DNA of 64,000 nucleotides, from the IMG/VR virus record IMGVR_UViG_3300045988_112906, one strand, 5' to 3'. This document shows positions 4,356 through 29,608 of the stretch, piece after piece. A model generated the notes under the pieces. That model was not told the DNA's origin. It was given only the letters and a program-made list of their open reading frames with translations, and searched no databases. A program made the position numbers and the translations under genes. Source of the DNA: a virus. How positions within the stretch are numbered: the first letter of the stretch is position 1; the number at the start of each line of letters is the position of its first letter.

Positions 4356-4362
4356 TGTCTTA

Positions 4363-4701: not shown

Positions 4702-4702
4702 A

Positions 4703-6897: not shown

Positions 6898-7271
6898 AGA
6901 AAGGATGTTGTATAGCTTTCTCTATAGGCTTTATTCCCTTGGCTCTGCTATTCTGGGGATTGCTTAAAGATGTGGAGGAAAATGGCGCAGTTTATGGCTT
7001 ACTAGATATAGCGGAGGGAGTTCTCGTTATATTTGTGATTATATTAGTACTGGCTTTATTTGGGTTGTTCGTTGGGTATATCCCTCATAGGGCAGGTAAA
7101 TATGTAAAGAAACTGCCAACGTGGTTGCAAAATTTAATAATTGTAGCTTATACTGGGTTAGTTCTATACCTTGCCTATTTATTCGTTAATGGTGTTGGCT
7201 CTTCGGAAGAAACCTATAGAAACTATAAGTTTCAAAAGAAGTTTGAGCACAAGTATAATGTAGATCTCTAG
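6894..7271 (+). CDS. Small integral membrane protein (3 predicted TM), translationally coupled to the XRE gene
   Basis: ATGA overlap with the regulator gene. Three long hydrophobic stretches. Position is analogous to repressor-linked exclusion genes (inference). Confidence 0.65.
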   Translation: MKKGCCIAFSIGFIPLALLFWGLLKDVEENGAVYGLLDIAEGVLVIFVIILVLALFGLFVGYIPHRAGKYVKKLPTWLQNLIIVAYTGLVLYLAYLFVNGVGSSEETYRNYKFQKKFEHKYNVDL

Positions 7272-8031: not shown

Positions 8032-8829
8032 ATGAGTGATATTTTAGTAAGAATCCCAAAGAATTTGACCTCTTCCCCAGTGCTTGGGGAGAAGAAGGAG
8101 TGGATATTGGGTGCTGCATCCTTGGCGCTTGGTGTTGGCTCATCTCTGTTTGGTGCTAACAAGGCGAAGAAGGCGGCTAGACGAGCACAAGCCGAGAATC
8201 AGTACAGAACGAACGCTGAGAAGGCTTGGTACGACAAGAACTACAACACGGACTACCTTGATACGAAGGCAGGTTCTAACCTTTTGAGAAGGGCGCAGGA
8301 AGTGCAGGACGAGTATATTCGCAAGGCTGATGGCGCTGCTGCCGTTGGCGGTGGAACTGCTGCAAGCGTGGCACAAGCGAAGGAGAGTGCTAACAAGGCG
8401 ATGGGTGACACGATTGCCAATATCGCAGCGCAGGACACTTCACGCAAGCAGCACGTTGAGGATGCTCACCTTGCCAACACTCAGCAGTTGTCTAGGGAAC
8501 GTCAGCAGATTGAGCAGCAGAAGGCGCAGGCAACGAGCGATGCAGCCCAAAATGCGTCAAATGCGATGTTCAATTTCGGTGTGAACCAATTGGGGTCAGA
8601 ACTTGAAGGGGCTAAGTCACAGAATAACAGTAAGTTAGCAAATTCAACGCCAACACTTGATAACAAGAATGTAACAGACATCAGCACTGGGCTATCACAC
8701 AAGGCTGATGCGAACGGACTTTTGAACCCGAACGCATCCAATAACCAGTTGGCTGGTGGCACGATGCTGGATGAAGCGGTAGGCAACCTCAACAAGAAGA
8801 AGCCGAAGGTTCCTCACCTAGGAGTGTAG
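8032..8829 (+). CDS. Putative virion-internal protein (265 aa; one TM-like segment, Ala/Gln-rich)
   Basis: The ATG at 8032 lies downstream of promoter L1; the track's TTG start at 7960 lies upstream of the promoter. First gene of the late operon that ends in the giant gene. Confidence 0.65.
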   Translation: MSDILVRIPKNLTSSPVLGEKKEWILGAASLALGVGSSLFGANKAKKAARRAQAENQYRTNAEKAWYDKNYNTDYLDTKAGSNLLRRAQEVQDEYIRKADGAAAVGGGTAASVAQAKESANKAMGDTIANIAAQDTSRKQHVEDAHLANTQQLSRERQQIEQQKAQATSDAAQNASNAMFNFGVNQLGSELEGAKSQNNSKLANSTPTLDNKNVTDISTGLSHKADANGLLNPNASNNQLAGGTMLDEAVGNLNKKKPKVPHLGV

Positions 8830-11657: not shown

Positions 11658-14600
11658 ATGGCAGACAAAGTAACATCACTTTATAACGCATTAAAGGCGG
11701 ATGGATTGTTCAAGCAGGCAAGAAGCCTGAATGACTTCAAGGCGAAAATGGCTTACCAGGGCTATCGTTCGCAGATTTACAAACTGGCTAGGGATAAGGG
11801 CGCAAATGTCGGCACGTTTTCCCAGTTCACCAATGCGCTTGGTTACAGCAGCGGTAGCCCGAAGCCCAGACAATCTTATGGTAGCTACCATACTCAGCAG
11901 CATAAGCCAGCAGAGAATAAAGCTATGACTACCGCACAGAGGGCAATGCAGGTGGCGCAGGAATATCAGCAGACTCATCAGCCTACTGATTACCTTCACA
12001 GACCGCAGAACCAGATGGGCAGGGCACGGAGAAATGCGCCGGGCAAGGCTTCTCCTTTCGTTCAGTCTCTCTATGAGATTGACAATGCACAGAAGGGACC
12101 TGATTATTCAGTTGACTATACATCACCAAAGGCTACACAGCAGGTGTATCAGCAGAATCAGCAGTTAAGAAGACAGGCGGCTAAGACTGCAGGCGACCAT
12201 ATTGTAAATGATGAGTACCGCAGACAGAGTCAGCCGATGATTGACAACGGAACCGTCGGCGTGATGAAGCCTATGGGCGAGATAGAGCAGGAAATGAGCG
12301 ATGCAGCTGATAGCCTCGTTGCAAGTAGCGGTGACTTCATCAAGAACAGTATCAACAATGAGTATAAGCAGGCAACTCTTAACGCAGAGAAGGAGATTCG
12401 CAGCAATGATGCTATGGGAAATCCTTTCATGGGGTCTAGTGCAGGTCTTATCAGCACTCAGATTGCTAATAAATATGAGTCTCCAGACAAGATAATGGCA
12501 AGCTTGCAGAACAGTATCAAGAAAAATATTGCAAATATTTTGCCTCGGGCTAGAGAACAGGCTATTCGGCTTGGTGTTTCAGAAGACTACTACATCAACA
12601 ATATGGTCCTTCCGAAGATGGTAGAGAAAGCTGTCGGGGATTTCAGAGAGACGGAAGTTGCAAGACGAATGCCTAAGAATGATCTGGACTATTTCGTTCA
12701 GGAGGCTACCAGTTCAAACTATCTTGCAAAACTCGGAATGATGCTCCTGAAAACAAAGAGCCAAAGACAGTTTGACGAGGAGGCGTTGGCTCGCACCAAC
12801 GAAGGAATGAATCCGAATTACAAGCCAAGCACGGCGTTGAGAGTTGGAGCAGACGTAGTAGGTATGGTTTCAGATCCTATTTTCGGTGCATCGGCTAAAG
12901 CGGGCGGACTTGTTGCTGGTAAGCTGATTGGTAATAGTACCAAGCTAGCGGCATTGATGGCTAACGGAAACCTTGCGCAGAGATTGATGGCAAAGGGAGC
13001 ACAGGCTGTGACAAGCGGCGGTGTTACCGGTTTTGTATTCGACTCTACAGGCTCTGTGATTCAGAACTACTCTACCGGTGAAGACACTTCTCTGGGGAAT
13101 ACCTTAAAGGTTGCAGCAAAGGGCGGTGCGACAGGTGCGGTGAACTTTGCTACTATGAGTCTGGCAGGCATTCCTCTAAGTGAAGTTGGAAGAAGCGTAG
13201 GACTGACAGGTATAAAGGGCGGTTCATTCTGGGGAAATGCAGGAAGAGCTACTGCCAAGGTAGGCTTGGAATCAGGAAAGACCTATATGGAAGCTATGGG
13301 TATGTATCTTGGTGGATATGTATCAGGAAAACTTGAAGGAAGAACGGATGCCAACGGAAAACCTATCGAGTTTGATTTGTGGAATGGCACTATGGAGAGT
13401 CTTCCTACCGCCATCGGTTTCAGATTGCAGCATGCCGTGGAAGGATTGAGAGGCGGAAGAAAGAACGAGAAGGGTGAAGATATGGGCTGGTTTGGCTCTA
13501 CCATTGCCAACTTCAAGGATTTCCTCACCTCAGACAAGGCTAAGGAATCAAGATTCCTGATGACGGAGGATGAGAGAAACATGATATTTTCTTCTGGTGC
13601 CATGAACGGCTTGATGCCGGACGGCGAGAATATTGTCAGTTACGCAAAGAGAACCAAGAACAAGAAGGTAAGCTATGATGATCCATATCTGGAAACAGAT
13701 GCTTCCATGATCAAGAACACCTATGACCAAATCATGGCAGATTCTAAAGTTTCTTGGGATGCCAAGGCTAAGTTCTCAGCTATGGTTACAGGAATCATGC
13801 CATCGGCTCGCCCGATGATGGACTATATTACATTCTCTAATGAGGACTATGTAAAGGATGGGCTGCTGAGAGGAAAGCGCAAATACGTGAACGAGTATTC
13901 TGCTAACGGTGAGCTGTTATCAAAGATTCCTTATGACAACAAAGAGGATAGGGATAATGTAGTCTATACCCACAATATCAAGAGGGAGAATCTACGTCTG
14001 TATAACGCAATGGGCTTGCTCGCAAGACAGGATAGAAACAACTATGAGCTACAGAATGACTTCTTTGTGGAAAACATGAAGAAGCCAGGCGCCGATGTCA
14101 ATACCCTTGTAACAAATATGGGTAATGAAGGTTCTGATGTTTTCAGAGATTTTTCACTCTTTGCCTTGAACTCAGAAAAAGGAACTGTTCTGAAAACCAT
14201 TGATTCTGTAGCCGTCCGTAACGGAATGAAGAGTGAGGATCTAATCAAAGCCATGAGAAAGAATCCGATGAAACGAACAGATTTCGAGCAGAATGTATGT
14301 GTAGAGCTTCGCCGTGCATTGGAATCAAAAGCTTTTCCTTACGGTAAGGTTCATGTGGAACAGAGCAATCTCAATGGTAAGGATGTTGCCGAGGACAATA
14401 ACCTTGGAACCGAGCAGCCAAACGGCGATGCAGTAAAGCAGGAACTGAATGGTCTGAGGCAGGCAGAGGAAGAAGTGGAAGTGCTGATGCGTGACAATGA
14501 TGTGTTCAGCCAGAACTTCAAGAAGCTACAGAGCCAAGGCTTAACGAATCCTCAGATTTATGACTGGATGGTCCAGCAGGGCGGCTTGACCGTAGAGCAA

Positions 14601-17600
14601 CTTGAACCATTTGCCCATTATATTAATGCGAACGCTAGAGTGCAGGGTATGCAGGAAGCTACCAAGCAGAAGATTGAAGAAACTGTATCAGCCTTTGTTC
14701 AAGATTGGAGCTATCACGGCACATTTAACGGTCAGCCAATGAATGGCGAACAGGCTCTGTATGTACAGGATAGCAACGGAAGAACCCTTCTTGTGGGTTC
14801 GGGTGATGTCACATTCGACCAGACCAACGGCAGAGCTAAGGAAGGTGTCGGCGATATGCTCGTATGCTTCGACCCTAACACTAAGGAAATGGTCTATGTG
14901 AAAGCTGACGAGGTTACTTTCTTCCAGAATCAGCCTATCGACCAGTTTGCTGCTGAGTATCGCCAGAGATTGCAGATAAAGAACTCTGAGCCTTACAATC
15001 AGGCGGCACAGGAACAGGCGATGCAGGATGCAGCCAAGCCTCAGCAGGAGCAGGAAGCTCCGCAAGATAATACCACAAAATCGGAAGATAGTACCACAAA
15101 ATCGGGTGAAAATGGCAAAGATGATACCACATCTGACACCACATCGGGCAAAAATAATACCACAAATGAGGACTTAGTACCACAAGAGCAGCCACAGCAG
15201 GAAAGCGAGGGTATGAAGCTCGAAGATGGCACTCCTGTTCCTTTTGATGCAAACGGAGATCCTGATTTCATGAAAATGACTCCAGAGCAGGGGGCTGAGG
15301 TCTATAAGATGCTGTTTGAGGAAGATGCGCCAATGCAGATTGACAGCGACATCAAGACCTTGGAGAAAGACTTGGAGAAGGTAAAGGCTTCCAAGTATGA
15401 AGGCGCTTCTGTTATGGAGAGAGCCGCAGCTCGTAAGAAGGTGAAGGAAGCTATCGCACTGGCTGAGACTCAGGTGGAGAAAGCCAAGGCTATCAAGACT
15501 GCCATGGAAAAGAAGCCTGAGGCAGAGAATACCGGTGTAGGTACGGCTGAAAACGCAGGACAATATGAAAAGGAACGTAAGCAGGGCTATCGTGAAGGTG
15601 AAGGCGGCGTTATCTATCATCGTCAGAAGCCAGAGGATGTTGGAGGTGTACGAGGCAAGGAAGTAACAGTAGCCTTCTCCCCTACCGAGAAAGTTGCAGG
15701 TCATGTTAAGCTGGTTGAGCTTGATTCTGTTCAGGCTAGCCACAACAACGGTCAGCTGAATCTTCTTCATTTCGGTCCAGACTGGCAGCCTAAGGACAGA
15801 AGCAGCCAGGCATCAAGAGTTGAGGCTGAGAAGATTGCAGGCAATATTGACCCAGAGCAGATTACTGGCAGCAACAATGCCTTCATAGGTTCGGCGCCGA
15901 GTGTGAACGAAAGACATGAAACCATCCAAGGCAACAACCGTGTGGATGCTTTGAAAGAAATGTATGCCTCTCACCCTGATCAGGCAGCCAAGTACAAGCA
16001 GTGGTTGATTGACCACGCAGCTGAGTTCGGCTTGAATGCTGAGGACATCAAGAAGATGAAGAAGCCTGTGATTGTAAACGAATTGCCTGTAGATGATGCT
16101 ACTGCAAAGAAGCTGGGTCAGATGATGGCTAGCGGATTCGAGAGTGGCGGCAAGCGTATTCCTGAGGTTAGCGCTACCATCAACAAGCTTGGTGACAAGA
16201 TGGAGAATCTGGCAAACGTTCTTCTTGCCGAGGGAACTCTTGGTGAGGATGCCAAGCTCAGCGACTTGATTAACCAGAACTCCAAGCGAGCTTTGGAATA
16301 TCTCAACAAGAACGGATTCATAGACAATACCGAGTATGAGAATCTGGCTACCGATGTTGTTACCAGAAGACAATGGTTAGAGAATGTGTTGAAGGCTAGT
16401 CTGTTTGATGGAAACAGAAAGACAGAAGCCGCATTCAACCGATTGCCAGGCAACGCTCAGAAGGCAGTATTGGCAACCTTCATGCGTGACAGAAACAGCA
16501 AGGCTGAGGATAGGATCAAGGAGAATATTCAGAAATCCTTTGAGGCTTACAATGAATTGAACCAGATTGCAGGGTTCAAGAATGCCAAGAATATCGAGCA
16601 GGCAAGGGCTGCAATACAGGCGGAACTGTTAAATGGTTCTAATAATGTGTTTGGAGAGGCTTCAATTCGAGAAAAATACACTAACTTTGAACTCGAATTA
16701 GCAGCATTATACAAGGGTTTGAAAGACCAGAAGAGCCTGACAGGATTGTTTGGCGAGTTCTACAATGCCGTTCAAGGCAAGATTGGTAAGCAGCTGGATG
16801 CTTTCAGTCAGGAAAATGCTGAGCCTTTAGGTAAGGACGAGGCTATAGAAAAAGTCTTTGGAATCAATAACAAGCAAGATTATGACAGACGAAGAGAAAC
16901 TGAATCTCCTTCTGAATCTGGAGGAGAAGATGGGGCTGAACCAGCAGGAGACAGACCAGCAGAAGCAGGAGAAGGAAGAGTAAATTCTGAGGATGAAGAC
17001 AAGCCAAATTCAGCAGGCTTTACTCCAAAGGAAATTAGAGATCATCAGGAAAAACTTGATAGAGCTAAGGAAAAATACGTAAAGGCTTTAAAAGAAGCCA
17101 AGAGTGAGAAGGAGATCAAAGCAGCGGAAGGTGAATTTGAGTTTGCGTATAAAGATCACCAGAATATGAACGGTGTTCTTGACGAGGCATCTGTGGCTGA
17201 CATGTGGAATAAAGAACTTGAATCAGCAAAGGATTCCGTTAAGAAAGACTCAAAAGAACCGTCCGCAGATCCTATGGAAGGTTTGAAGCAGGCTGCTGAC
17301 GCATTCCATGAAGAGCAGAAGCAGAAAGGTGAATTTGCCATGAACTTGAAGATTGGCAAGGCTCGACAAGATTATGCTGCCGCCAAGGAAAGCGGTGATG
17401 CAGAGCGGACCACCACGGCTGCCAAGGAATTGAAGCATCTCTTAGACGACAGATTGAAGCAAGAGGGTAAAGGTCTTGCTGAGAGACAGAAGATTATCGC
17501 CGAAGAGATAGGAAAGGCTGAGGCTGAGATAATCGACAAGCCTTGGGAACAGATGGACTTGGAGGAACGAGAAGCTGTTTCTTCAAAGAACCCTCTCACG

Positions 17601-19580
17601 GAATCAGAGATTAACGAACTGACCTCTGAGGAAAATAAAGAATTGATACCTGCCGCACTCGCATATTTGCGTGGTGACAAGAGCAATATCATAAACGCAA
17701 TATCTTACTTTAAAATTTGGAACGATGTTAGAAATAGACATGAGAATGTTTCCGACAATAGCGGAACAGAAAACGGAACACAGCTGGATGCTGCCGATAC
17801 TACAGGCGGCGAAGGATTGGGACTGGGACGAGGACGAGAAAGCGGAAGACCTGATGGACCAGTGGATAGAGGAACAGGCAACGAAGCTGCACCCGGAGAG
17901 CGAAATGGCGGAGAGAGTAATCAGAACGACACTACTCTATCTGCTGGAGAACAAGGCAATAAGCAAGGTGAAGGAAATTCATCCGGAGTGGGCGCAGTAC
18001 CTGCCGGAGGTTCTGACACCAACGGAGGCGGTTCAGCTAGCGGAAATGGACATGTATCTGGAGGAAGTGGACGTGAAAGCAGCAACAGACCTGCTGACAC
18101 GAATGCAGGACGGAAGCCTACAGCCAAGCAAGGAACTACTTTCCCAGATAGCACAGCAGAACGGCTAAAGCAGGAAAGAGCTGACTATGAGAAGAAGAAG
18201 AAAGACTTCTGGGCTAGATGGAAGAAGGCAGGGCAAGGCTATGCCAAGATTGCCCTGACTCCTTTCAAGAAGCTCAACCTTACACCAGAGCAAATAGAAA
18301 TGCTGCCTGAGTTGGTAAAGATGCACCTTAACGGTGCTGTCTTGAAGATTAAGGAGGGTATCTACAAGTTCAACGAGTGGAAAGCTGCCATGCTTGCCGA
18401 GGAAGGCGAGGAGCTGAAAATGATAGGTCTTAGTGATGATGATATTGACAGATTCATTGAAGACTATTGGAACACTCCTTACGAAATGGATGGTGAGACC
18501 CATACAATCAGGGAGTGGAGCAGCATCTATGGAAACCAGCATCTGAAAAAGAAGCTAAAAGAACCTCTTGAAGAGAAGTACAAGAGACAGATGGAAGCCG
18601 AACCTATCGAAGTGAAGGTGGGCGACATGAAGAACATCGAGGAGACTTTGCCTTATCTCTTGCCTCAGCAGCAGGAAGACGTATTGAAGGCTGAAACTCA
18701 GTTCTTCGGAAAGGAACATACAGACCGTGAACATGCTTACGGTAAGGGCTATCTGTTTACCAATGGAACTGGTACTGGAAAAACATACACAGGTCTTGGC
18801 ATTGCTAAGCGATTGGCTAAGCAGGGCAAAGGCAGAATACTCTTTATTACTCCTAGCCAGAAGAAGGTTTCCGACTGGATAAAGGACGGAAAGAATCTTG
18901 GTCTGGACATTAAGGATCTTGACTCCTGGGCAAAAATGCGTGGAACCACTGCTACTACAGAAAGTGGTGAAGGTATGGTAATTACTACATTTGCAAACTT
19001 TGGTCTGAATAAGAAACTTCTTGAAACAGAGTGGGATGCCGTTATCTATGACGAGTGTCACCGTATCATGGAAAACAAGAAGGGTACTGAAACAGCCAGA
19101 AGTATGCAGCACTACATGGTTACCAATCGTGACGAGAATCATTGTTTCCAGAGATTGCAGAGCATCAACCCTGAGTATCAGAAAATGAATGGTGCTGCCG
19201 AAAAATTCGATGCGTTGCGACTAAAGGAAATCGAACGCATAAAGAAAGAGTACAAGAATAGCCATCCAAGTGCTACAGACAGAGATGTGGATAATGCTAC
19301 ATTAAAGAGCCTTCCTAGAGATTTGAACAGCTTTGCCTCTGCCGACGGAATGACTTTCCCTAAGCTTGGAAAAGCATATCAGGATTTCATCAAGGCAAGG
19401 GAAGCATATAATAAGGTAGAGCCTAAACTGAAAGAGCAGGCAAAGAGTTCGTGGAAACACACAAAAACCATATTCCTCTCCGCTACACCTTTCAATACTA
19501 GAGAGAATCTTGATTATGTTGAGGGCTATATCTTTAAGTATCCGGAAAAGGACGAGAGAGGAATGGGTGGAAGAACCTAG
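11658..19580 (+). CDS. Giant polyvalent protein, part 1 (2640 codons): unknown N-terminal region, ParB-like motif, SF2 helicase motifs I-III. Ends at an in-frame TAG.
   Basis: Gly-rich hydrophobic stretch (about aa 395-560). IQGNNRVDAL at 15930..15953 resembles the ParB/Srx box. GTGTGKT at 18765..18785 is Walker A. DECH at 19050..19061 is motif II. LSATP is motif III. Confidence 0.85.
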   Translation: MADKVTSLYNALKADGLFKQARSLNDFKAKMAYQGYRSQIYKLARDKGANVGTFSQFTNALGYSSGSPKPRQSYGSYHTQQHKPAENKAMTTAQRAMQVAQEYQQTHQPTDYLHRPQNQMGRARRNAPGKASPFVQSLYEIDNAQKGPDYSVDYTSPKATQQVYQQNQQLRRQAAKTAGDHIVNDEYRRQSQPMIDNGTVGVMKPMGEIEQEMSDAADSLVASSGDFIKNSINNEYKQATLNAEKEIRSNDAMGNPFMGSSAGLISTQIANKYESPDKIMASLQNSIKKNIANILPRAREQAIRLGVSEDYYINNMVLPKMVEKAVGDFRETEVARRMPKNDLDYFVQEATSSNYLAKLGMMLLKTKSQRQFDEEALARTNEGMNPNYKPSTALRVGADVVGMVSDPIFGASAKAGGLVAGKLIGNSTKLAALMANGNLAQRLMAKGAQAVTSGGVTGFVFDSTGSVIQNYSTGEDTSLGNTLKVAAKGGATGAVNFATMSLAGIPLSEVGRSVGLTGIKGGSFWGNAGRATAKVGLESGKTYMEAMGMYLGGYVSGKLEGRTDANGKPIEFDLWNGTMESLPTAIGFRLQHAVEGLRGGRKNEKGEDMGWFGSTIANFKDFLTSDKAKESRFLMTEDERNMIFSSGAMNGLMPDGENIVSYAKRTKNKKVSYDDPYLETDASMIKNTYDQIMADSKVSWDAKAKFSAMVTGIMPSARPMMDYITFSNEDYVKDGLLRGKRKYVNEYSANGELLSKIPYDNKEDRDNVVYTHNIKRENLRLYNAMGLLARQDRNNYELQNDFFVENMKKPGADVNTLVTNMGNEGSDVFRDFSLFALNSEKGTVLKTIDSVAVRNGMKSEDLIKAMRKNPMKRTDFEQNVCVELRRALESKAFPYGKVHVEQSNLNGKDVAEDNNLGTEQPNGDAVKQELNGLRQAEEEVEVLMRDNDVFSQNFKKLQSQGLTNPQIYDWMVQQGGLTVEQLEPFAHYINANARVQGMQEATKQKIEETVSAFVQDWSYHGTFNGQPMNGEQALYVQDSNGRTLLVGSGDVTFDQTNGRAKEGVGDMLVCFDPNTKEMVYVKADEVTFFQNQPIDQFAAEYRQRLQIKNSEPYNQAAQEQAMQDAAKPQQEQEAPQDNTTKSEDSTTKSGENGKDDTTSDTTSGKNNTTNEDLVPQEQPQQESEGMKLEDGTPVPFDANGDPDFMKMTPEQGAEVYKMLFEEDAPMQIDSDIKTLEKDLEKVKASKYEGASVMERAAARKKVKEAIALAETQVEKAKAIKTAMEKKPEAENTGVGTAENAGQYEKERKQGYREGEGGVIYHRQKPEDVGGVRGKEVTVAFSPTEKVAGHVKLVELDSVQASHNNGQLNLLHFGPDWQPKDRSSQASRVEAEKIAGNIDPEQITGSNNAFIGSAPSVNERHETIQGNNRVDALKEMYASHPDQAAKYKQWLIDHAAEFGLNAEDIKKMKKPVIVNELPVDDATAKKLGQMMASGFESGGKRIPEVSATINKLGDKMENLANVLLAEGTLGEDAKLSDLINQNSKRALEYLNKNGFIDNTEYENLATDVVTRRQWLENVLKASLFDGNRKTEAAFNRLPGNAQKAVLATFMRDRNSKAEDRIKENIQKSFEAYNELNQIAGFKNAKNIEQARAAIQAELLNGSNNVFGEASIREKYTNFELELAALYKGLKDQKSLTGLFGEFYNAVQGKIGKQLDAFSQENAEPLGKDEAIEKVFGINNKQDYDRRRETESPSESGGEDGAEPAGDRPAEAGEGRVNSEDEDKPNSAGFTPKEIRDHQEKLDRAKEKYVKALKEAKSEKEIKAAEGEFEFAYKDHQNMNGVLDEASVADMWNKELESAKDSVKKDSKEPSADPMEGLKQAADAFHEEQKQKGEFAMNLKIGKARQDYAAAKESGDAERTTTAAKELKHLLDDRLKQEGKGLAERQKIIAEEIGKAEAEIIDKPWEQMDLEEREAVSSKNPLTESEINELTSEENKELIPAALAYLRGDKSNIINAISYFKIWNDVRNRHENVSDNSGTENGTQLDAADTTGGEGLGLGRGRESGRPDGPVDRGTGNEAAPGERNGGESNQNDTTLSAGEQGNKQGEGNSSGVGAVPAGGSDTNGGGSASGNGHVSGGSGRESSNRPADTNAGRKPTAKQGTTFPDSTAERLKQERADYEKKKKDFWARWKKAGQGYAKIALTPFKKLNLTPEQIEMLPELVKMHLNGAVLKIKEGIYKFNEWKAAMLAEEGEELKMIGLSDDDIDRFIEDYWNTPYEMDGETHTIREWSSIYGNQHLKKKLKEPLEEKYKRQMEAEPIEVKVGDMKNIEETLPYLLPQQQEDVLKAETQFFGKEHTDREHAYGKGYLFTNGTGTGKTYTGLGIAKRLAKQGKGRILFITPSQKKVSDWIKDGKNLGLDIKDLDSWAKMRGTTATTESGEGMVITTFANFGLNKKLLETEWDAVIYDECHRIMENKKGTETARSMQHYMVTNRDENHCFQRLQSINPEYQKMNGAAEKFDALRLKEIERIKKEYKNSHPSATDRDVDNATLKSLPRDLNSFASADGMTFPKLGKAYQDFIKAREAYNKVEPKLKEQAKSSWKHTKTIFLSATPFNTRENLDYVEGYIFKYPEKDERGMGGRT

Positions 19581-22500
19581 TTCTACCTTAATCACTTTGG
19601 TGCAGCATACAAGTTCCGCTACCATCGTCTGGAGCAGAGTATCAGTAACCCGGATGCCGTAGCCAAGCAGGAGGTTGCCTTCTCTGATTACTTGCAGAAC
19701 ACACTTGGCACGATGAGCGGAAGAATTATTGATAGTCCTTACGACTATTCTAGAGACTTTCCTACCGTGGCTCCTGATCATGCCGAGAGTTTCAATAATG
19801 CGGTGCAGGACACATTGAAGACAAAGTATCTGCATGATGCGTACAGCAAGACCATCGGTGATTACAACTATGGTAGTGCCCTTTTCGAGACTATGAAAGT
19901 GTCTGCTGCCATTGACAGAATCAAACAGCACTTGGATATGGGCAGAAAGGTTGTTATCTTCCATCGCCGTGTTGAGAGCAAGGAACCTTTGGAGGCTCCA
20001 TTTGCTTACATGCTTAGAGTTGCCAACGAGCAGATCAAGATGATGAAACCAGGCAAGGAGCGTGACGAATACATCAAGGAATGCACCGAGTTCCGAAACA
20101 AGTATGCAGACCTTCTGGAATGGGAGAAGACTCTTGACTACAGTATGCCAAGAGAACAGATTGCCAAGGTGTTTGGCGAGAAGAATGTGTTGTTCTTCAG
20201 CGGAAAGGAAAGCAAGAAGGTGAAGGATAAGGCGGTTGATACATTTAATGATGATGATAGCGGCAAGAATATCATCGTGATTCAGGAAGCTTCAGGAAAG
20301 GAAGGAATCTCACTTCATGATACCACAAGCAAGCACCAGCGTGTCTGCATCACTCTCGCATTGCCTCAGAGTCCTATCACAGCCTTGCAGATTGAAGGTC
20401 GCATTTACCGTATCGGTAATATGAGCAATGCCATCTTTGAGTACCCTATCTTGGGTCTCAACTCTGAAATGATGCTTTTTGGAGAAAAGTTCAATAATCA
20501 GGTAAGTACTACCGAGAACCTTGCATTGGGCAGTCAGGCAAGAAACTTGCGTGACAGTTTCGCTAATGGTATCTTGGAACATAGCGGTATTGTACCGGTA
20601 GAGAACCAGGGTGTAGGCGGAAAGGAGTTTGACGCAGCAACACCAAGTGAGAATGACCCATTCGATAATGCGGTGCTTGATTATTACAGCAATCAGAAAC
20701 TTAATAAGAACAATCGTGAAGGTAGCGACTACTTCCCTACTCCTGAACCTCTTGGCTACAAGATGGTAGAATGGGCTGGCTTGGGTGAAGGTGACTCTGT
20801 ATTGGAGCCTAGTGCCGGTCATGGAGCCATCGCAAGATACGTGCCTAAGACTAACGAAATGGTAAGCATCGAACCTAGTCAAAGTCTCTTCACGAAGTTG
20901 CAGTTGAAGGCTGGCGGTTTGGGTAGAAAGTTCTTAAACAATACGTTTGAGAACTATGCGCTGAACAACAAGCACGATGTAATTGTAATGAATCCTCCTT
21001 TCGGCAAGGCTGGTGCATTGGCTATCCAGCATGTTGACAAGGCTTTCAAGCACTTGGATGAAGGAGGTCGTATCGTAGCAATCATACCTAGAGGCTCAAC
21101 AGACAAGAAGTTTGACAAGTGGTATAACGAGCAGAAGAACGTTGCCATGCGTGCTGAGGTAAATCTGCCTGATATCCTTTTCCAGCAGGCAGGAACCAGA
21201 GTTGCATGCCGAGTAGTTGTATTGGATAAGATTTCCGATGCTGCTTTGAGAAGCAAGGCAGGTTATCCTGAAAAGATTGATCTGAGCGGTCATTACGATA
21301 AGATTGAAGATTTCTTCAATGACCTCCGAGATATTGAAATGCCTGAGCGCATCATTGATACGAATCTCAAAATGCAGAAGAAAGCCAAGGCTGCTGTCAA
21401 GGATATTATGGAAATCAAGGGCGTGAAAAACGTTTCTTATGGTAAGACTGGTATTGATGTTTCTTTGACTGGTTCTTGGATGAACTACGGAATATCTTTC
21501 ACTGGTAGTGACAAACCGAACTACTGGAGAGATAAGATGGCTAACTATTATACCAAATATGATGAGCTTCAAAAGCTGGAGTATCAGGAAAACAAGCAGT
21601 CGGTGTTTGATGAGTTGAAGAAACTGTCTTGCAAGCTTGCCGGTATGACAGAGGATGAAATGCAGAGATATATCGCATCAAAGACCAACGGCAGCACCCA
21701 CTTCCGTATGGAACTAGGCAAGACATTCTCAGACTCCAAGGAGAACTTTGATGGAGTAAGAGACAGAGCAGTAGAGGAAAAAGGCATTGTCATGCCTAAC
21801 CTGAATAAGGAAAGCGTTAATGTTGTGCCGGTGGAAAAACATAGCTTTGGAGTTACCGAGAATGAGATATTGACAAATGCAAAGGCATGGGCGAAAGATA
21901 ATCTTGTAACTACAGGAAAATCGGAATTGCCTACAATGCGTGATGGAACGCCTTATACTATTAGTAAAAAGGCTGTTGAAAAATACTTGTCTGAGAGTGC
22001 TGTAAAGAAGAGCGATGGTCTTGATATTCATCTTTCCGTTCTTCCAAAGCTTACAGATGTTATTCATGAAAGCATTGAAGCTGAGATTCATCCAGACTAC
22101 AATAAGGACGAAGACGGAAATCGCAGCATCGAAAATGGGCACGGTGACAATATTTTGGTCCATCGTTTGTATGGTGCTGTACAATTGGACGGTAAGACGT
22201 ACCGAGTAAAAACAACCATGCAAGAGTTCAGAGGTGGTGAAGAAAACAAGCCTCATAGTTATGAGGTAACAAAAATAGAGTTGCTGGAAGGCTCCAAGAC
22301 AGCGAACGAATCCGACAGTCTCCCTTTGAGCAGTGCAACCAACAACTCTGAAAATGAGTTACTTGGCTCCCCTGGAGAGCGAGAGAATCCCGACAAACCA
22401 CATTCGGATGCACCAAGCAACTCTATTTCTGTTGCAAAGTTACTAAATGGAGTTGAGAAATCATACGATTCTGGGAAGAAATTGCTTGAAGAAAGCAAAA

Positions 22501-25500
22501 ATTTAACAGATGAAGATACTTATTTTAGAAATGATAACGATTCACCCGTATCAATTTCTAAGGATGCTCCTGTTGTAGTAAAGCATGTGGCGAAGGTTGC
22601 AAAGGCTACTGGCGGCAAGGTGAAGATGTTGCAAAGTGTCGAAGAAGTTACCAATGCCGAGGCTAAGACAAGACTTGAAAAGGGTGAAAAGGTAGAAGGA
22701 TGGTACGATGAACGCACAGGTGAAGTTGTGCTGTATATGCCAAACGTACATGACAGCTACACAGCTGAGAAAACGGTATGGCATGAAATCGTAGGTCATA
22801 AAGGCATGCGTGAACTGTTCGGTAACGACAACTACGACAAATTCCTTGATGATATTTACTTCAATCTTGATAAGCCGGAATACGCCGATCTTAAAAAGCT
22901 CGTCATGAAGGAACTACAGTACAATCCATTCGATTACAGAAATGCCATCGAAGAGGCTATTGCTAGAATGGCGGAAGAGGGACATGGCGAGCATGGTCTT
23001 TGGAATAACCTGAAAAACAAGGTAGCAAATATCTTTAGAGAAATCGGCTACCGTGTGGCGCCGAACACAAAGGACATTAAGTATCTCTTATGGCTCGCCA
23101 AGAATTACTCCAAGCATCCTGAGAGTGATGGTTACTTTGCTATCAGAAGAAATGCCTTGCTGCATAAGTTAGAGAAAGATAATACGCCTAGCATCGTGGA
23201 TAGAAACGGAATGTACTTTGATAATGATGGAAAGAACCATGATTATCTGCTAGACTTGAACCATAAGGACTTCGAGGAGGCTACCGATGGAAAAGTGCAT
23301 TTCCGCACCTCCCCTATGACTGCATCTAAGATTGAGGAGTATAACCGCAGACTCGGAACAAAACTCTATGCTTTCAAGGAAAGTTCCGTTGATAATATGC
23401 AGTCTTTGCAAGAGGCTATGGAAATAATCTCTGGTGAAAAGAATGCGTGGACGGATATTCCTTCTGCCTTCAATCCATTGCAGGCGCAGAACCGCATTGA
23501 TAGTATCGTACAGCAAAAGGCAGAAGAGTATGACGATAAATACACGAAGCCTCTTGATGATTCTTTCAAGAAAGTTGTATCTACCATGAGCGGTAGCGAT
23601 AAGGATGAGCAGTTGAGAAACGCACAGATCTATATGATTACCAAGCATGGTTTGGAGCGTAACCGTGTATTCTTTGTTCGTGACGCAATTCGGGATATGA
23701 TGAATGGCGATGTTACGAAAGCAAAGACATTGATGAAGGACTGGAACGACAAGCAGAAGGATTTGGCTGACGAACTAGAGAAAGGCAACATCAGATTTGA
23801 TGAGTACCTGGAGCAAATGGACGAATGGATTCGTAGCAACGTGGACGTTAACTTTGTTGCTGACGAACACGATTATTCTGGATTCCATGGTATGCAAAAT
23901 ATAGCCAAGACCTCTGATCCATACGACGACAAGCTTGCCATTGACAACGTGATGAGTGCAGAAAGCCAGATGGGTAGCGATTTGGCAAAAGACTTCTGGA
24001 TAAAGAAGAAGGCTGCAACAGATTACGTTATCGACCAAGAATACTACAACGGCTTTATTGATCAATCTGATAGAGATTATCTAAAGGGAATGTTCCAATG
24101 GTATGTGCCTCTTAGAAAGTTTGATGATACAACCGCAGAAGATGTGTATGGTTATATCGGAGAAAAGGGAGATCCTTCCAACTTTGTTGGTCCTGTATTG
24201 GCAAATGCAAAGGGAAGAAGCAGTCTGAGCGACATTAATGTTATGGCTCAAATATCCGCCATGGCAAAGTCTTCGCTTATCAATGGTGGAAAGAATGTAG
24301 TAAAGCAGTACTTTGCCAGATTTGTTTCTGCCTATGAAACTGGTAATACAAAAGATAAAATCTTTGTTGAAGTGAATCCTTGGCTAGAGAAGCACGTGGT
24401 AGATGGTAAAGAAGTTTGGGAAGAGGTTACACCTCAAATTCCGGAGAACGCCACACAGCAGCAAATAAGCGATATACTGCAAAACTTTGAGGACAGCATG
24501 CAGGCGAAGAAAGCAACTGGTGATGCAAAGCTTTCACACAGAAAGCCTAACATTGGCTTTAAATTCCAGCGTGCCAAGGATAAGTCTGAACATATCATTG
24601 ATGTGTATATCGCAGGAAGGAAAAGAAGCTTTGTCTGTCAGGGTAACCCAAGAGCAGCCCAAGCACTCAATGGTCTTTTGAAAGATTCAGGAACCAGAAA
24701 TGCGGTAACGCAATTTGATGCGAAGGTTACGAGAAAAATTGCCCAATTCAATACATCGCTGAATCCAGACTTTATGATGTCTAATATGTTGCGTGACTTA
24801 ACTTTTGCATCAGCCAATGTTACCAAGGAAGGATTTAGCTACACCAAGGACTTCTTGAAAGAATATGCAGGAAACATGATTTCTATCAAGAACGGAAAAG
24901 GTAGTGGAAACTATCTTACTATGTTCCGCAAGTATAGAGACGGTAAGCTTGATACAAATAATGAACGAGAAAGAATGTTCAAAGAGTTTATGGACAATGG
25001 CGGTCAGACTGGTTTTGTTCAAATCAAGAAACTGGAAAGCCTGATTGAGGAATATGATAACCTGATCAAGAAAGGAAGTAAGGATGCAGACGGATGGTTT
25101 GTCAAGAAAATCAAGGAAGGTGGAACCTTTATTGAGACTGCCAACGAGATTATTGAAAACGTAGCTCGCTACTCTACTTACTGTACTTCACGAAAGCACG
25201 GAAGAAGCGTAGGACGAAGTATCTATGATGCCAAGGAGGTTTCAACAAACTTCAACCGGCACGGTTCTGGAGATGCCATCAAGACCTTGAAAACTTCAAA
25301 TGATAGCAATATTGATAAGAAATTCCGTGGTACTCTCGGTTTCTTCAATAGCTGGATGAAGAATCATACGCAGTTCTATAACGCCGGCGTGCAAGGTGCA
25401 AATCTGTTTTTCAAGAACTATAAGAGTGCATGGAAGACTTCTGCCGTTTCATTCGGTATGTTACCTTTAGGACTCGGTATTGCTCAGGCGTTAATCAATC

Positions 25501-26600
25501 AATACCTGATTAATAATGAGGACGAGAAGGACAGAAAGGGCGTGAAGGATCCATACGCAGAGTTACCAGAATGGAAACGCAGAAATAATATCTGTATCTA
25601 TACTGGGCACGGAAACTTTAAGACTATTCCTATTGCCATCGAGTTAAGAGCGTTCTTCGGGTTGGGCGATATTGCGGCTGGCTATGTTGTGAATGATAAG
25701 TTGAAGAGTAGTACGCCTATCGGTTATGATATTTTGGGACAGATGGCACAATTAGTACCAGCCTCTGATTTCCTTGGACACCATTCGCCAAGCAACAACA
25801 TTAAGGAACTTGGAGAGGATGCAATACTTGCAGTAACTCCAACAACCATATCTCCTGCTATGGAACTTGCCTTCAATCGAGACTGGACAGGCAGACCTTT
25901 CTATCGTGATTATGACTATCTTGATAAGGCTCCAAGATGGAAGAGGGCATACGATAACACCAATAGTATTTATATGAGTATTAATAAATGGGCTAACCAA
26001 GGCACAAATGGTATTGATAGTTCTAATGCAGACATGAAGGGAAATGAAACTCTTGATTATCTTACTGCACCTTACGCTTGGCAACATTTGATAGATAGTT
26101 ACACCGGTGGCATGGGTTCAACTATTGGCAGAACTTACAAAACGTTAGAAGCTGTTGGTAAGGGCGTTGTATCTGGAGCAAAGAACAAAGAAGGATTCAG
26201 CAAGGGCTTCTCTGATGAATTTGAAAAGTTTGATAAAAATCAAATCCCTCTTTACAGGGTGTTTAACTATACTCCTAAAGAGGGGCAAGACATGCAGCGA
26301 ACTAGATCGAAATGGTATAACTATTCCGACGAGTTGAAGCAGACGGAATATAATATTAAGCAGTTGAAGACTAACACGCCTGATGTTTTGAAGAACATGG
26401 AGAACAATGCCAAGAAGTTCAACTTTACTCATAGCAAAGAAGGAAAGGCGTATAATATATGGAATGCAGCAGATAATTATATCCAGAAGAAGAAAAAAAT
26501 CTTAAAAAGAGTATCTGATCCGGAAGTAATCAAGTCAATTAACGAAGACATCAATCGAAAGATGCAAGAAGCGGTGAATGATTTGGATAAGCTAAATTAA
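19581..26600 (+). CDS. Giant polyvalent protein, part 2 (same frame, directly after the TAG): helicase C-lobe, N6-adenine DNA methyltransferase, HExxH metallopeptidase, long C-terminal region with TM-like segments
   Basis: The frame is open from 19581; the first ATG is only at 19713. QIEGRIYRIGN at 20388..20420 is helicase motif VI. VLEPSAGHGAI at 20799..20831 is the SAM motif. NPPF is at 20991..21002. HEIVGH is at 22782..22799. Confidence 0.8.
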   Translation, partial: FYLNHFGAAYKFRYHRLEQSISNPDAVAKQEVAFSDYLQNTLGTMSGRIIDSPYDYSRDFPTVAPDHAESFNNAVQDTLKTKYLHDAYSKTIGDYNYGSALFETMKVSAAIDRIKQHLDMGRKVVIFHRRVESKEPLEAPFAYMLRVANEQIKMMKPGKERDEYIKECTEFRNKYADLLEWEKTLDYSMPREQIAKVFGEKNVLFFSGKESKKVKDKAVDTFNDDDSGKNIIVIQEASGKEGISLHDTTSKHQRVCITLALPQSPITALQIEGRIYRIGNMSNAIFEYPILGLNSEMMLFGEKFNNQVSTTENLALGSQARNLRDSFANGILEHSGIVPVENQGVGGKEFDAATPSENDPFDNAVLDYYSNQKLNKNNREGSDYFPTPEPLGYKMVEWAGLGEGDSVLEPSAGHGAIARYVPKTNEMVSIEPSQSLFTKLQLKAGGLGRKFLNNTFENYALNNKHDVIVMNPPFGKAGALAIQHVDKAFKHLDEGGRIVAIIPRGSTDKKFDKWYNEQKNVAMRAEVNLPDILFQQAGTRVACRVVVLDKISDAALRSKAGYPEKIDLSGHYDKIEDFFNDLRDIEMPERIIDTNLKMQKKAKAAVKDIMEIKGVKNVSYGKTGIDVSLTGSWMNYGISFTGSDKPNYWRDKMANYYTKYDELQKLEYQENKQSVFDELKKLSCKLAGMTEDEMQRYIASKTNGSTHFRMELGKTFSDSKENFDGVRDRAVEEKGIVMPNLNKESVNVVPVEKHSFGVTENEILTNAKAWAKDNLVTTGKSELPTMRDGTPYTISKKAVEKYLSESAVKKSDGLDIHLSVLPKLTDVIHESIEAEIHPDYNKDEDGNRSIENGHGDNILVHRLYGAVQLDGKTYRVKTTMQEFRGGEENKPHSYEVTKIELLEGSKTANESDSLPLSSATNNSENELLGSPGERENPDKPHSDAPSNSISVAKLLNGVEKSYDSGKKLLEESKNLTDEDTYFRNDNDSPVSISKDAPVVVKHVAKVAKATGGKVKMLQSVEEVTNAEAKTRLEKGEKVEGWYDERTGEVVLYMPNVHDSYTAEKTVWHEIVGHKGMRELFGNDNYDKFLDDIYFNLDKPEYADLKKLVMKELQYNPFDYRNAIEEAIARMAEEGHGEHGLWNNLKNKVANIFREIGYRVAPNTKDIKYLLWLAKNYSKHPESDGYFAIRRNALLHKLEKDNTPSIVDRNGMYFDNDGKNHDYLLDLNHKDFEEATDGKVHFRTSPMTASKIEEYNRRLGTKLYAFKESSVDNMQSLQEAMEIISGEKNAWTDIPSAFNPLQAQNRIDSIVQQKAEEYDDKYTKPLDDSFKKVVSTMSGSDKDEQLRNAQIYMITKHGLERNRVFFVRDAIRDMMNGDVTKAKTLMKDWNDKQKDLADELEKGNIRFDEYLEQMDEWIRSNVDVNFVADEHDYSGFHGMQNIAKTSDPYDDKLAIDNVMSAESQMGSDLAKDFWIKKKAATDYVIDQEYYNGFIDQSDRDYLKGMFQWYVPLRKFDDTTAEDVYGYIGEKGDPSNFVGPVLANAKGRSSLSDINVMAQISAMAKSSLINGGKNVVKQYFARFVSAYETGNTKDKIFVEVNPWLEKHVVDGKEVWEEVTPQIPENATQQQISDILQNFEDSMQAKKATGDAKLSHRKPNIGFKFQRAKDKSEHIIDVYIAGRKRSFVCQGNPRAAQALNGLLKDSGTRNAVTQFDAKVTRKIAQFNTSLNPDFMMSNMLRDLTFASANVTKEGFSYTKDFLKEYAGNMISIKNGKGSGNYLTMFRKYRDGKLDTNNERERMFKEFMDNGGQTGFVQIKKLESLIEEYDNLIKKGSKDADGWFVKKIKEGGTFIETANEIIENVARYSTYCTSRKHGRSVGRSIYDAKEVSTNFNRHGSGDAIKTLKTSNDSNIDKKFRGTLGFFNSWMKNHTQFYNAGVQGANLFFKNYKSAWKTSAVSFGMLPLGLGIAQALINQYLINNEDEKDRKGVKDPYAELPEWKRRNNICIYTGHGNFKTIPIAIELRAFFGLGDIAAGYVVNDKLKSSTPIGYDILGQMAQLVPASDFLGHHSPSNNIKELGEDAILAVTPTTISPAMELAFNRDWTGRPFYRDYDYLDKAPRWKRAYDNTNSIYMSINKWANQGTNGIDSSNADMKGNETLDYLTAPYAWQHLIDSYTGGMGSTIGRTYKTLEAVGKGVVSGAKNKEGFSKGFSDEFEKFDKNQIPLYRVFNYTPKEGQDMQRTRSKWYNYSDELKQTEYNIKQLKTNTPDVLKNMENNAKKFNFTHSKEGKAYNIWNAADNYIQKKKKILKRVSDPEVIKSINEDINRKMQEAVNDLDKLN

Positions 26601-28753: not shown

Positions 28754-29608
28754 TTGGCGGCTGGATTGACCTTCTCGCCTAACGTGAGCGGACAGAAGAA
28801 TCCTTACTTAGATGCCGTGGGCTGTATGTCGCAGCTTGTGCCGGTGATGGACTATCTCGGCAACTCTTCGGCTGGTAAGGAGCCATTGAACGAGACGATC
28901 AAGGCTTTCTCTCCTTCTGCCCTATCTCCTTTCGTGGAATGGGAGTTAAATACCGACTGGAAGGGTGCGCCAATTGAAAGACGTGGTGACTGGAATGAAA
29001 ATTCCCCTGCTTGGCAGAGAGCCTACAAGGGCACGCCTGACGGATATATGGCTGTGAATAAATGGGTGAATGCCCAGACCAACGATGTAGCCAAGGGCAA
29101 CGAGGATATGCTGGGCAACAGTTTCCTGGATATGGCAACGAACCCTAGTATGCTGAATCACTACATCGGTGGTATCGGTGGCGGTGCTGCTACGTTTACA
29201 GAGCGACTTATCGGTGTTATCAAGCATGGAAACGATACGGAAACCAAGGATATTCCTTTCCTTCGATCGCTGCTTTATACGCCTAACGAGCAGAGCAGTT
29301 TGCAGAGAACCAAGAGCAAGTGGTATAACTACAAGGATGAAATGGAGAAGACGATGGCGAACGTGGACCGCCTGAAATCGAAGAACGTTCCGCTGGATAA
29401 GAGAATCACAAATATCGGTGAGTATTATCAATTCCAGAACTCCAAGGAGGCTGCCAAGGTTAGGGTGATAGAACTGGCTGAGAAGCAGATGAAGCGATGG
29501 AAGAAGATGAGGGATAAGGCGAGCGATACCGAAAGCATCAACTTCGCCAATCAGAATATTGATAGGATCATGATGGATGCGGTGGATGAGCTGGATAGGC
29601 TGGAATAA
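28754..29608 (+). pseudogene. Orphan, diverged copy of the giant gene's C-terminal ~280 codons (no ATG, no promoter)
   Basis: Collinear with the last ~290 aa of 19581..26600. Shared strings include QLVP, W.G.P, AP.W.RAY, NKW.N, QRT.SKWYNY.DE and AV..LD.L. About one third of residues are identical by eye. The frame opens only with an alternative start codon, exactly where homology begins. Confidence 0.6.

What the first reader, a model, noticed from the sequence alone, without database searches (positions are those of the whole stretch)
19560..19715. A single in-frame TAG splits the SF2 helicase core of a ~4,980-codon gene
ORFs 11658..19580 and 19692..26600 share one reading frame. They are separated only by the TAG at 19578..19580.

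The 37 codons after the TAG (FYLNHFGAAYKFRYHRLEQS...) contain no stop and no ATG. The first ATG is at 19713, and no promoter box is visible there.

The helicase motifs fall on both sides of the stop:
- Upstream: motif I (GTGTGKT, 18765..18785), motif II (DECH, 19050..19061) and motif III (LSATP).
- Downstream: the C-lobe and motif VI (QIEGRIYRIGN, 20388..20420).

A functional helicase therefore needs translation through this TAG. Possible explanations:
- suppressor-tRNA or programmed read-through, perhaps used for timing or dosage control;
- a recent nonsense mutation or an assembly error;
- two polypeptides that reassemble.

TAG-to-Gln recoding is documented for some Bacteroidota phages. Here, however, TAG also ends several ordinary genes (the MCP gene as TAG-TAA, the amidase gene, the YopX gene, 6894..7271 and 8032..8829). 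Genome-wide reassignment is therefore not supported by this window.
Basis: partly seen in the sequence, partly recalled or inferred. Interest (0 to 1): 0.7.

Follow-up and report, generated by a model that had tools for sequence, protein, structure and literature searches.

The report
Private amber mutation in giant phage gene
The in-frame TAG is real, but it is a one-base CAG-to-TAG nonsense change seen only in this one assembled phage genome, while every relative examined keeps glutamine there in one unbroken giant gene, so it is an ordinary mutation or read-level error, not programmed recoding.

Summary
A single TAG at 19578..19580 splits a roughly 4,980-codon frame. SF2 helicase motifs I, II and III lie upstream; the C-lobe, motif VI, a methylase, a zincin, LPD3 and LPD38 lie downstream.

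The gene is a phage-type polyvalent protein with a DdrB-ParB domain and a DarB-like SNF2–methylase pair. It sits in a temperate tailed phage of about 76 kb.

Every relative examined carries a Gln codon at this position:
- 12 IMG/VR genomes: CAG in 11, CAA in 1.
- 4 metagenome contigs: CAG.
- 8 proteins at least 93.7% identical, plus three relatives at 55–66%: Q.

All 12 relatives with enough DNA carry one uninterrupted ORF of 4,938–5,684 codons. In the six closest, that same gene ends in TAG.

The TAG allele occurs only in contigs 100% identical to the window. These are probably re-assemblies of one sample.

No CUA-anticodon tRNA, read-through context, RNA structure or start-like signal is present. 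TAG terminates at least 13 other ORFs in the window. The downstream half shows no relaxed selection, so the change is very recent.

Verdict: a private amber mutation, or less likely a read-level artefact. Low interest.

The parts
19578..19580 (+). In-frame amber codon TAG. The ancestral state is CAG (Gln), so this is a single C-to-T transition at 19578.
   Evidence: Searches show the TAG; 12 of 12 IMG/VR relatives carry CAG or CAA; 4 of 4 metagenome contigs carry CAG; 8 of 8 close cluster members carry Q.
11658..19577 (+). N-terminal 2,640 codons of the polyvalent-protein gene: mosaic N-terminal modules, a DdrB-ParB domain and the SNF2/Sbno-like helicase N lobe.
   Evidence: The exact product is NCBI DAU30927.1.
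15684..16079 (+). DdrB-like ParB domain (aa 1343-1474).
   Evidence: PF18763, E = 6.8e-25.
18708..19103 (+). Helicase N lobe (ResIII/AAA_34/DEAD), with motif I at 18765..18785 and motif II (DECH) at 19050..19061.
19581..26600 (+). C-terminal 2,339 codons plus TAA of the same gene: helicase C lobe, N6-adenine-type methylase (NPPF), LPD3, HExxH zincin and LPD38.
   Evidence: dN/dS against the intact relative L002 is 0.071.
19593..19631 (+). HFG..Y(K/R)..RY..L segment, conserved in nearly all of the 119 homologues aligned. It lies between the TAG and the first possible restart codon, so any reinitiated product would lack it.
   Evidence: alignment; coordinates.
19713..19715 (+). First in-frame ATG after the stop. 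Gene callers use it as the start of the second ORF, but it is a conserved internal Met of the helicase, not a start-like site.
   Evidence: Met is conserved across homologues; the upstream 25 nt is 52% A+T, against 72% for real starts and 54% for internal ATGs; gene callers start at this ATG.
20133..20417 (+). Helicase C lobe (Helicase_C/Helicase_C_4), including motif VI at 20388..20420.
20868..21092 (+). Methyltransferase domain (MTS) with NPPFG at 20991..21005. Together with the helicase it forms the DarB-like helicase–methylase pair.
21873..22241 (+). LPD3 domain.
22782..22799 (+). HEIVGH zincin (MPTase-like) motif.
   Evidence: One search finds the motif. Its role is inferred from PMC5512222.
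25548..26159 (+). LPD38 domain, which is specific to phage-type polyvalent proteins.
   Evidence: PF18857, E = 1.5e-26..

Best explanation
The TAG is a lineage-private, very recent nonsense (amber) substitution. One C-to-T transition turned a conserved Gln codon (CAG) into TAG. It lies inside a gene that is normally a single ORF of about 5,000 codons.

That gene encodes a phage-type polyvalent protein of a temperate gut phage of about 76 kb, probably infecting Prevotella. Its modules are a DdrB-ParB domain, a DarB-like SNF2 helicase–adenine methylase pair, a zincin, LPD3 and LPD38.

The stop is not programmed. Translation is expected to end at codon 2641. That yields a 2,640-aa fragment with half a helicase. 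The C lobe, methylase, zincin and LPD38 modules would be lost, apart from trace near-cognate read-through or fortuitous reinitiation.

Shown:
- the ancestral state of the codon;
- the uniqueness of the TAG allele;
- normal use of TAG as a terminator;
- absence of suppressor or read-through signals in the sequence examined;
- absence of relaxed selection downstream.

Inferred:
- The variant persists because the gene is an accessory counter-defence factor, by analogy with the non-essential Dar proteins of phage P1.
- Alternatively, the genome sits as a prophage, or is complemented by wild-type genomes.
For: **Ancestral state.**
- 12 of 12 IMG/VR relatives have CAG (11) or CAA (1) at the exact position, within an otherwise near-identical context. 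Their helicase N lobe is 76–98% identical at the protein level.
- 4 of 4 metagenome contigs with the same local context have CAG.
- 8 further cluster members at 93.7–97.9% identity, four of them full-length at 4,983–4,984 aa, have Q.
- Relatives at 55–66% identity (P0001–P0003) also have Q.

**Gene integrity in relatives.** All 12 loci carry one uninterrupted ORF of 4,938–5,684 codons.

**TAG works as a stop in this clade.**
- The six closest relatives end this very gene with TAG.
- In the window, 13 ORFs of at least 80 aa end in TAG. Several are followed within 2–3 nt by the next gene's ATG (TAGCGTATG, TAGCTTATG, TAGGTATG).
- Treating TAG as a sense codon fuses only this one long gene pair.

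**The allele is private.** The TAG allele was found only in contigs 100% identical to the window over 22–28 kb:
- ENA ERZ1748977 NODE_37 (coverage 9.9);
- Logan SRR1761719;
- ENA ERZ28621585, a scaffold of SAMN03283292;
- the GenBank TPA protein DAU30927.1.

**No suppression machinery or signal.**
- ARAGORN finds no tRNA in the 64-kb window, in 7.7 kb beyond its end in the same genome, or in the corresponding remainder of four relatives.
- The only Rfam tRNA hit has no CUA triplet in its anticodon arm, and it is equally present in the relatives.
- RNA after the stop folds no better than shuffled sequence (z = 0.03).

**No start-like features downstream.**
- The 25 nt upstream of ATG 19713 are 52% A+T. 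Real starts average 72% and internal ATGs 54%.
- No TAnnTTTG box occurs in 19300..19712.
- That Met is a conserved internal residue, and the conserved HFG..RY..L segment would be lost on reinitiation.

**Recency.**
- Downstream dN/dS against L002 is 0.071. An intact–intact pair gives 0.069.
- Window-branch changes downstream are 27 synonymous to 9 non-synonymous. The probability under neutrality is 2e-12.
- There are no further stops or frameshifts.
Against: - Reads could not be inspected, so a read-level or consensus artefact is not excluded. The concordant assemblies probably share one read set.
- Strong purifying selection downstream is also what continued expression of the second half would produce.
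- The last ~4.6 kb of this genome was checked for tRNAs only in relatives, and the host genome is unknown. A host amber suppressor cannot be excluded.
- Dispensability of the gene is argued by analogy with phage P1 Dar proteins (PMC5512222). It was not tested.
Confidence: 0.76

Rival explanations
1. Sequencing, consensus or within-sample-variant artefact. The phage population in the sample really carries CAG, or a CAG/TAG mixture, and the assemblies fixed a T.
For: Every relative has CAG or CAA. Coverage of the ENA contig is only about 10-fold. All TAG-bearing contigs are 100% identical, so they probably derive from one read set. There are no signs of gene decay.
Against: At least three different assembly pipelines (a SPAdes-style NODE contig, Logan and a scaffolded ENA assembly) plus the GenBank TPA protein record give the same base. 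The site is not in a homopolymer or repeat. A substitution error in the consensus at 10-fold Illumina coverage is uncommon (general knowledge).
Confidence: 0.12
2. The TAG is translated, so full-length protein is still made. The route could be a host or phage amber-suppressor tRNA, near-cognate read-through by tRNA-Gln, or incipient code-15 use. This might lower the protein's dosage.
For: The ancestral residue is Gln, which is what TAG encodes in code-15 phages of Bacteroidota (bioRxiv 10.1101/2021.08.26.457843; PMC9523058). The downstream half is still under purifying selection on the window's own branch. The genome carries an odd tRNA-like gene.
Against: - CAG to TAG is also simply the commonest route to an amber codon.
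- The stop is absent from all relatives, so nothing is conserved or programmed.
- TAG terminates at least 13 ORFs in the window, and terminates the same giant gene in the six closest relatives.
- No CUA-anticodon tRNA was found in the genome parts examined.
- The tRNA-like gene has no CUA triplet and is equally present in four relatives whose junction codon was not sampled.
- There is no downstream RNA structure.
- Only one in-frame TAG occurs in 64 kb.
Confidence: 0.06
3. A functional two-piece helicase. The 2,640-aa N fragment and a reinitiated C fragment, starting at TTG 19692 or ATG 19713, reassemble non-covalently.
For: Gene callers and GenBank annotate a second ORF from ATG 19713. The break falls between the two RecA-like lobes, where split helicases are conceivable. 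The downstream half is intact.
Against: - No homologue is split here.
- The ATG is a conserved internal Met without start-like upstream composition and lies 133 nt from the stop.
- No promoter-like box is present.
- The 45 skipped residues include the HFG..RY..L segment conserved across nearly all homologues aligned.
- The mutation is too recent for any adaptation.
Confidence: 0.04

Closest known systems
Classical amber (nonsense) mutants of phage genes, arising by CAG-to-TAG transition
   Same: A single C-to-T change at a Gln codon gives an in-frame TAG in an otherwise intact gene. The allele is private to one genome, and all relatives keep CAG or CAA.
   Different: It was found in a metagenome assembly, not selected in the laboratory. 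Whether the carrier is viable, complemented or a resting prophage is unknown.
Phage-type polyvalent proteins (Iyer, Burroughs, Anand, de Souza, Aravind 2017, PMC5512222), e.g. the phage P1 DarB and DdrB virion proteins
   Same: One giant polypeptide combines a DdrB-ParB domain, an SNF2-type ATPase fused to an adenine methylase, an HExxH zincin, LPD3 and LPD38. The context is a tailed phage with portal, terminase and integrase genes.
   Different: Here all modules sit in one ORF of about 5,000 codons, whereas P1 spreads them over several proteins. The copy in the window is interrupted by a stop. Packaging into virions and anti-restriction activity were not tested.
Genetic code 15 (TAG read as Gln) in gut phages such as crAss-like and Lak phages (bioRxiv 10.1101/2021.08.26.457843; PMC9523058)
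   Same: An in-frame TAG at a position where relatives have Gln, in a phage of a Bacteroidota host.
   Different: There is one TAG rather than dozens. TAG is the normal terminator of many genes here, and of the same giant gene in relatives. No suppressor tRNA-CUA was found. The TAG is not shared by any relative.

Membership tests
Stop-codon-recoded (code 15, TAG=Gln) phages | Many in-frame TAG codons in (late) genes; ORFs lengthen genome-wide when TAG is read as sense | tested here: not met
   Only the giant gene pair fuses. Other long ORFs are intact under code 11 with tight gene spacing.
Stop-codon-recoded (code 15, TAG=Gln) phages | TAG avoided as a terminator of the recoded genes | tested here: not met
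   13 ORFs of at least 80 aa end in TAG, several followed directly by the next ATG. L001–L006 end the same giant gene in TAG.
Stop-codon-recoded (code 15, TAG=Gln) phages | Phage-encoded suppressor tRNA with a CUA anticodon | tested here: not met
   No tRNA by ARAGORN in the window, in L026 (7.7 kb further into the same genome) or in relatives' remaining regions. The single Rfam tRNA-like hit has no CUA triplet. The last ~4.6 kb of this genome was seen only in relatives.
Programmed stop-codon read-through | Stop codon conserved among relatives, with a coding continuation | tested here: not met
   None of the 12 genomic loci, 4 contigs or 8 close proteins has a stop here.
Programmed stop-codon read-through | Read-through-promoting RNA structure downstream of the stop | tested here: not met
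   The 120 nt from the stop fold no better than shuffled sequence (z = 0.03).
Naturally split helicase genes | Homologues split at the same point, with a genuine start codon on the second half | tested here: not met
   All homologues that reach the site read through it. ATG 19713 is a conserved internal Met with an internal-like upstream composition.
Phage-type polyvalent proteins (PMC5512222) | Several unrelated effector or enzymatic domains in one very large polypeptide | tested here: met
   Pfam finds ddrB-ParB, ResIII/AAA_34, Helicase_C, MTS, LPD3 and LPD38, plus an HEIVGH motif. Relatives encode it as a single ORF of 4,938–5,684 codons.
Phage-type polyvalent proteins (PMC5512222) | Presence of phage-specific hallmark domains (DdrB-ParB, LPD38) and a phage genomic context | tested here: met
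   PF18763 at E = 6.8e-25 and PF18857 at E = 1.5e-26. The paper lists both as phage-type only. Integrase, portal and terminase genes are in the window.
Phage-type polyvalent proteins (PMC5512222) | Packaged in the virion and delivered into the host, where it counters defence | not testable with these tools
   Needs virion proteomics or genetics.

The most novel reading that the evidence does not exclude
The amber codon is a tolerated or even selected allele that is partly decoded as Gln. Decoding could be by a host amber suppressor, by near-cognate tRNA-Gln, or by the phage's unusual 110-nt tRNA-like RNA with its extended anticodon arm. The phage would then make mostly the N-terminal fragment and a little full-length polyvalent protein. 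That would be a first step toward the TAG-to-Gln recoding seen in other Bacteroidota phages.
Probability: 0.04. Interest if true: 0.7.

Novelty: already known. Interest (0 to 1): 0.1.

Why it matters
It matters mainly as a negative result. This site should not be counted as stop-codon recoding, programmed read-through or a split helicase.

It shows that a single in-frame TAG at a Gln position in a Bacteroidota phage is not evidence for code 15 when relatives carry CAG and use TAG as a terminator.

The two GenBank ORFs, DAU30927.1 and DAU30926.1, are better annotated as one interrupted polyvalent-protein gene.

The gene family itself may deserve study independently of this stop codon. It consists of mosaic polyvalent proteins of about 5,000 aa in temperate phages of about 76 kb, probably infecting Prevotella.

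Tried and rejected
- **Megablast of 18400..20800 against GenBank phages:** no match, so annotated relatives were not available.
- **Exact-pattern scan of IMG/VR with the window's local sequence:** 0 hits. Relatives differ at a nearby synonymous site. The protein-guided scan worked instead.
- **Full-length MAFFT of 60 homologues:** timed out. It was replaced by a segment alignment.
- **Scan of species-representative bacterial and archaeal genomes (genome contigs):** returned only a chance match in a high-GC MAG. No host or prophage copy was found that way.
- **Exact look-up of ORF 62918..63655:** failed, probably because the called start differs. ORF 61177..61677 was used instead to reach beyond the window.
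- **Literature search for the run and sample accessions:** nothing found. That the TAG-bearing assemblies come from one sample remains an inference from their 100% identity.
- **Code 15 recoding, programmed read-through and a split helicase:** each was considered and rejected on features tested (see the membership tests).
- **Dcm-type 5-methylcytosine hotspot:** considered by eye from the ancestral context. That context is ACC-CAG-TT, not CCWGG, so it is not supported.
- **The tRNA-like gene as a suppressor:** rejected because it has no CUA triplet in its arm and is equally conserved in four relatives.
Full report
**1. The observation**

The sequence reads ...GGA AGA ACC TAG TTC TAC CTT..., with TAG at 19578..19580. 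ORF 11658..19580 (2,640 codons) and the stretch 19581..26600 (2,339 codons, ending in TAA) share one frame, and this is the only stop in 4,981 codons.

The first in-frame start codons after the stop are TTG at 19692 and ATG at 19713.

Pfam finds these domains:
- Upstream of the stop: ddrB-ParB and ResIII/AAA_34/DEAD.
- Downstream of the stop: Helicase_C/Helicase_C_4, an MTS methylase, LPD3 and LPD38.

An HEIVGH zincin motif lies at 22782..22799. Homologues align across the stop with E-values down to 1e-273. The two ORFs are therefore one interrupted gene.

**2. What the gene is**

The domain set matches a phage-type polyvalent protein as defined by Iyer et al. 2017 (PMC5512222). It comprises a DdrB-like ParB domain, an SNF2/Strawberry-notch-like ATPase fused to an adenine methylase (the DarB-like pair), a zincin, LPD3 and LPD38. 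That paper lists DdrB-ParB and LPD38 as restricted to phage-type members.

The window belongs to a temperate tailed phage:
- a tyrosine integrase at 341..1477;
- portal and terminase genes;
- HTH repressor-like genes, Bro-N, an amidase and YopX.

Complete relatives are 75–76.5 kb long. One homologue is labelled Prevotella stercorea.

**3. What relatives have at the site**

A protein-guided scan of IMG/VR gave 12 loci. Six are 92–98% identical and six are 76–77% identical in the helicase N lobe. At the exact codon, eleven have CAG and one has CAA.

All twelve encode the gene as a single uninterrupted ORF of 4,938–5,684 codons. In the six closest, that ORF ends in TAG.

A degenerate DNA pattern with N at the variable base found four more metagenome contigs, all with CAG.

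The 90%-identity protein clusters of the two window ORFs hold eight further members that reach the site. They are 93.7–97.9% identical, and four are full-length at 4,983–4,984 aa. All read ...GRTQFYLNHFG.... More distant relatives at 55–66% identity (P0001–P0003) also have Q.

The ancestral state is therefore Gln (CAG), and the window differs by one C-to-T transition.

**4. Where the TAG allele occurs**

An exact-product look-up found the 2,640-aa truncated protein on five contigs. Three were returned:
- ENA ERZ1748977 NODE_37 (76,317 bp, coverage 9.9);
- Logan SRR1761719 (32.6 kb);
- ENA ERZ28621585, a scaffold named after SAMN03283292 (68.4 kb).

All three are 100% identical to the window over 22–28 kb.

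The same protein is GenBank TPA entry DAU30927.1, and the second ORF is DAU30926.1. They are annotated as two separate genes.

Perfect identity over tens of kilobases suggests repeated assemblies of one sample. I could not confirm the sample links. The allele is therefore private to one genome, although several assemblers reproduce it.

**5. Tests of the interesting readings**

*Recoding*
- Reading TAG as sense fuses only this one gene pair among the long ORFs.
- Thirteen ORFs of at least 80 aa end in TAG. Several are followed within 2–3 nt by the next gene's ATG.
- The closest relatives terminate this very gene with TAG.

*Suppressor tRNA*
- ARAGORN finds no tRNA in the window, in the 12 relatives' loci, in 7.7 kb beyond the window end in the same genome (L026), or in the corresponding remainder of four relatives.
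- Rfam finds one 110-nt tRNA-like gene outside the window. A 51-nt hairpin without any CUA triplet replaces its anticodon arm.
- That gene is almost invariant in four relatives. It is not specific to the amber-carrying genome.

*Read-through signal*
- The RNA after the stop folds no better than shuffled sequence (z = 0.03).
- Nothing about the stop is conserved, because relatives have no stop there.

*Split gene or reinitiation*
- ATG 19713 encodes a Met conserved across the whole family.
- Its upstream 25 nt are 52% A+T. Internal ATGs average 54% and genuine starts in this genome average 72%.
- No Bacteroidota-type TAnnTTTG box lies in 19300..19712.
- The 45 skipped residues include the HFG..Y(K/R)..RY..L segment, conserved in nearly all of the 119 homologues aligned.

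**6. Age of the change**

The gene is mosaic among relatives, so comparisons used the well-aligned parts.

Downstream of the stop, dN/dS between the window and its nearest relative L002 is 0.071. The intact–intact pair L002/L004 gives 0.069.

Changes were polarised with outgroups. The window's own branch carries 27 synonymous and 9 non-synonymous changes downstream. The L002 branch carries 65 and 18. With 80% of sites non-synonymous, the probability of 9 or fewer out of 36 under neutrality is 2e-12.

There are no further stops or frameshifts. So either the nonsense change is very recent or the second half is still expressed. Given section 5, recency is the simpler reading.

**7. Most likely mechanism and consequence**

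I conclude that a private CAG-to-TAG amber mutation truncates the polyvalent protein after 2,640 residues. That removes half of the helicase and all downstream modules.

By analogy with the P1 Dar proteins, which are dispensable anti-restriction cargo (PMC5512222), such a loss could be conditionally neutral. It could also ride along in a prophage or be complemented by wild-type genomes. These last points are inference.

Other lesions in this large gene do occur in public data:
- a frameshift about 14 codons before the same site in scaffold L021;
- an in-frame deletion of about 645 residues covering the helicase C lobe and the methylase in P0005 and P0006.

Of these, P0005 lies on contig L020 next to bacterial chromosomal genes.

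A read-level artefact remains possible at about 0.12, because I could not see the reads.

**8. Verdict**

This is an ordinary nonsense mutation, or an error, in a known kind of phage gene. Interest is low (0.1). The residual novel reading is partial decoding of the amber codon as a first step toward recoding. I put it at about 4%.

Noticed in passing
Outside the window, same genome: L026 1402-1511 (+). This is about 6.3 kb past the window end, on the window's minus strand. Also L022 3623-3732, L023 3656-3765, L024 3751-3860 and L025 3656-3765.: A 110-nt tRNA-like gene scores 47 bits against Rfam RF00005. Its acceptor stem, D arm and T arm are normal. Its anticodon arm is replaced by a 51-nt extended hairpin with an 11-nt loop (AACCCUUAACA). 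ARAGORN misses it. It is almost invariant in four relatives and has no CUA triplet. Its role is unknown.
   Followed up: partly
P0005 on L020 2905-5046, and P0006; the deletion corresponds to window aa ~2641-3288 of the giant gene (about 19578..21520).: A related lineage at about 57% identity carries an in-frame deletion of about 645 residues. It removes the helicase C lobe and the methylase. Its left breakpoint lies within about 3 codons of the window's TAG, at an SGK/SDK microhomology. In L020 the remnant lies next to bacterial chromosomal genes (MoxR, carbonic anhydrase, RND efflux). The P0006 cluster has 26 member sequences.
   Followed up: partly
L021 (ENA ERZ28615431 scaffold_15616), ORFs 318-1703 and 1700-4834.: In a 68–76% identical relative, the giant gene is broken by a frameshift about 14 codons before the position of the window's TAG. 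There is a further break near its position 282-318. Whether these are assembly errors or decay is unknown.
   Followed up: no
window 11658..26600 compared with L001-L012.: The giant gene is strongly mosaic. Blocks such as aa 1-1130, 1136-1760 and 3228-3660 switch between about 97% and 25-50% identity among otherwise close relatives. This indicates frequent module exchange within the polyvalent protein.
   Followed up: partly
window 28754..29608 (+).: A second, separate ORF of 284 aa also carries an LPD38 domain. It matches the C-terminal end of a 3,427-position PHROG (phrog_14770).
   Followed up: no
window 341..1477 (+).: The tyrosine integrase (Arm-DNA-bind_5, Phage_int_SAM_5, Phage_integrase) has an exact protein sequence listed in 187 blocks of the public collection. 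This phage group is therefore widespread in gut metagenomes.
   Followed up: no
window 26598..26600 compared with L001-L006.: The giant gene ends in TAA in the window but in TAG in the six closest relatives.
   Followed up: yes
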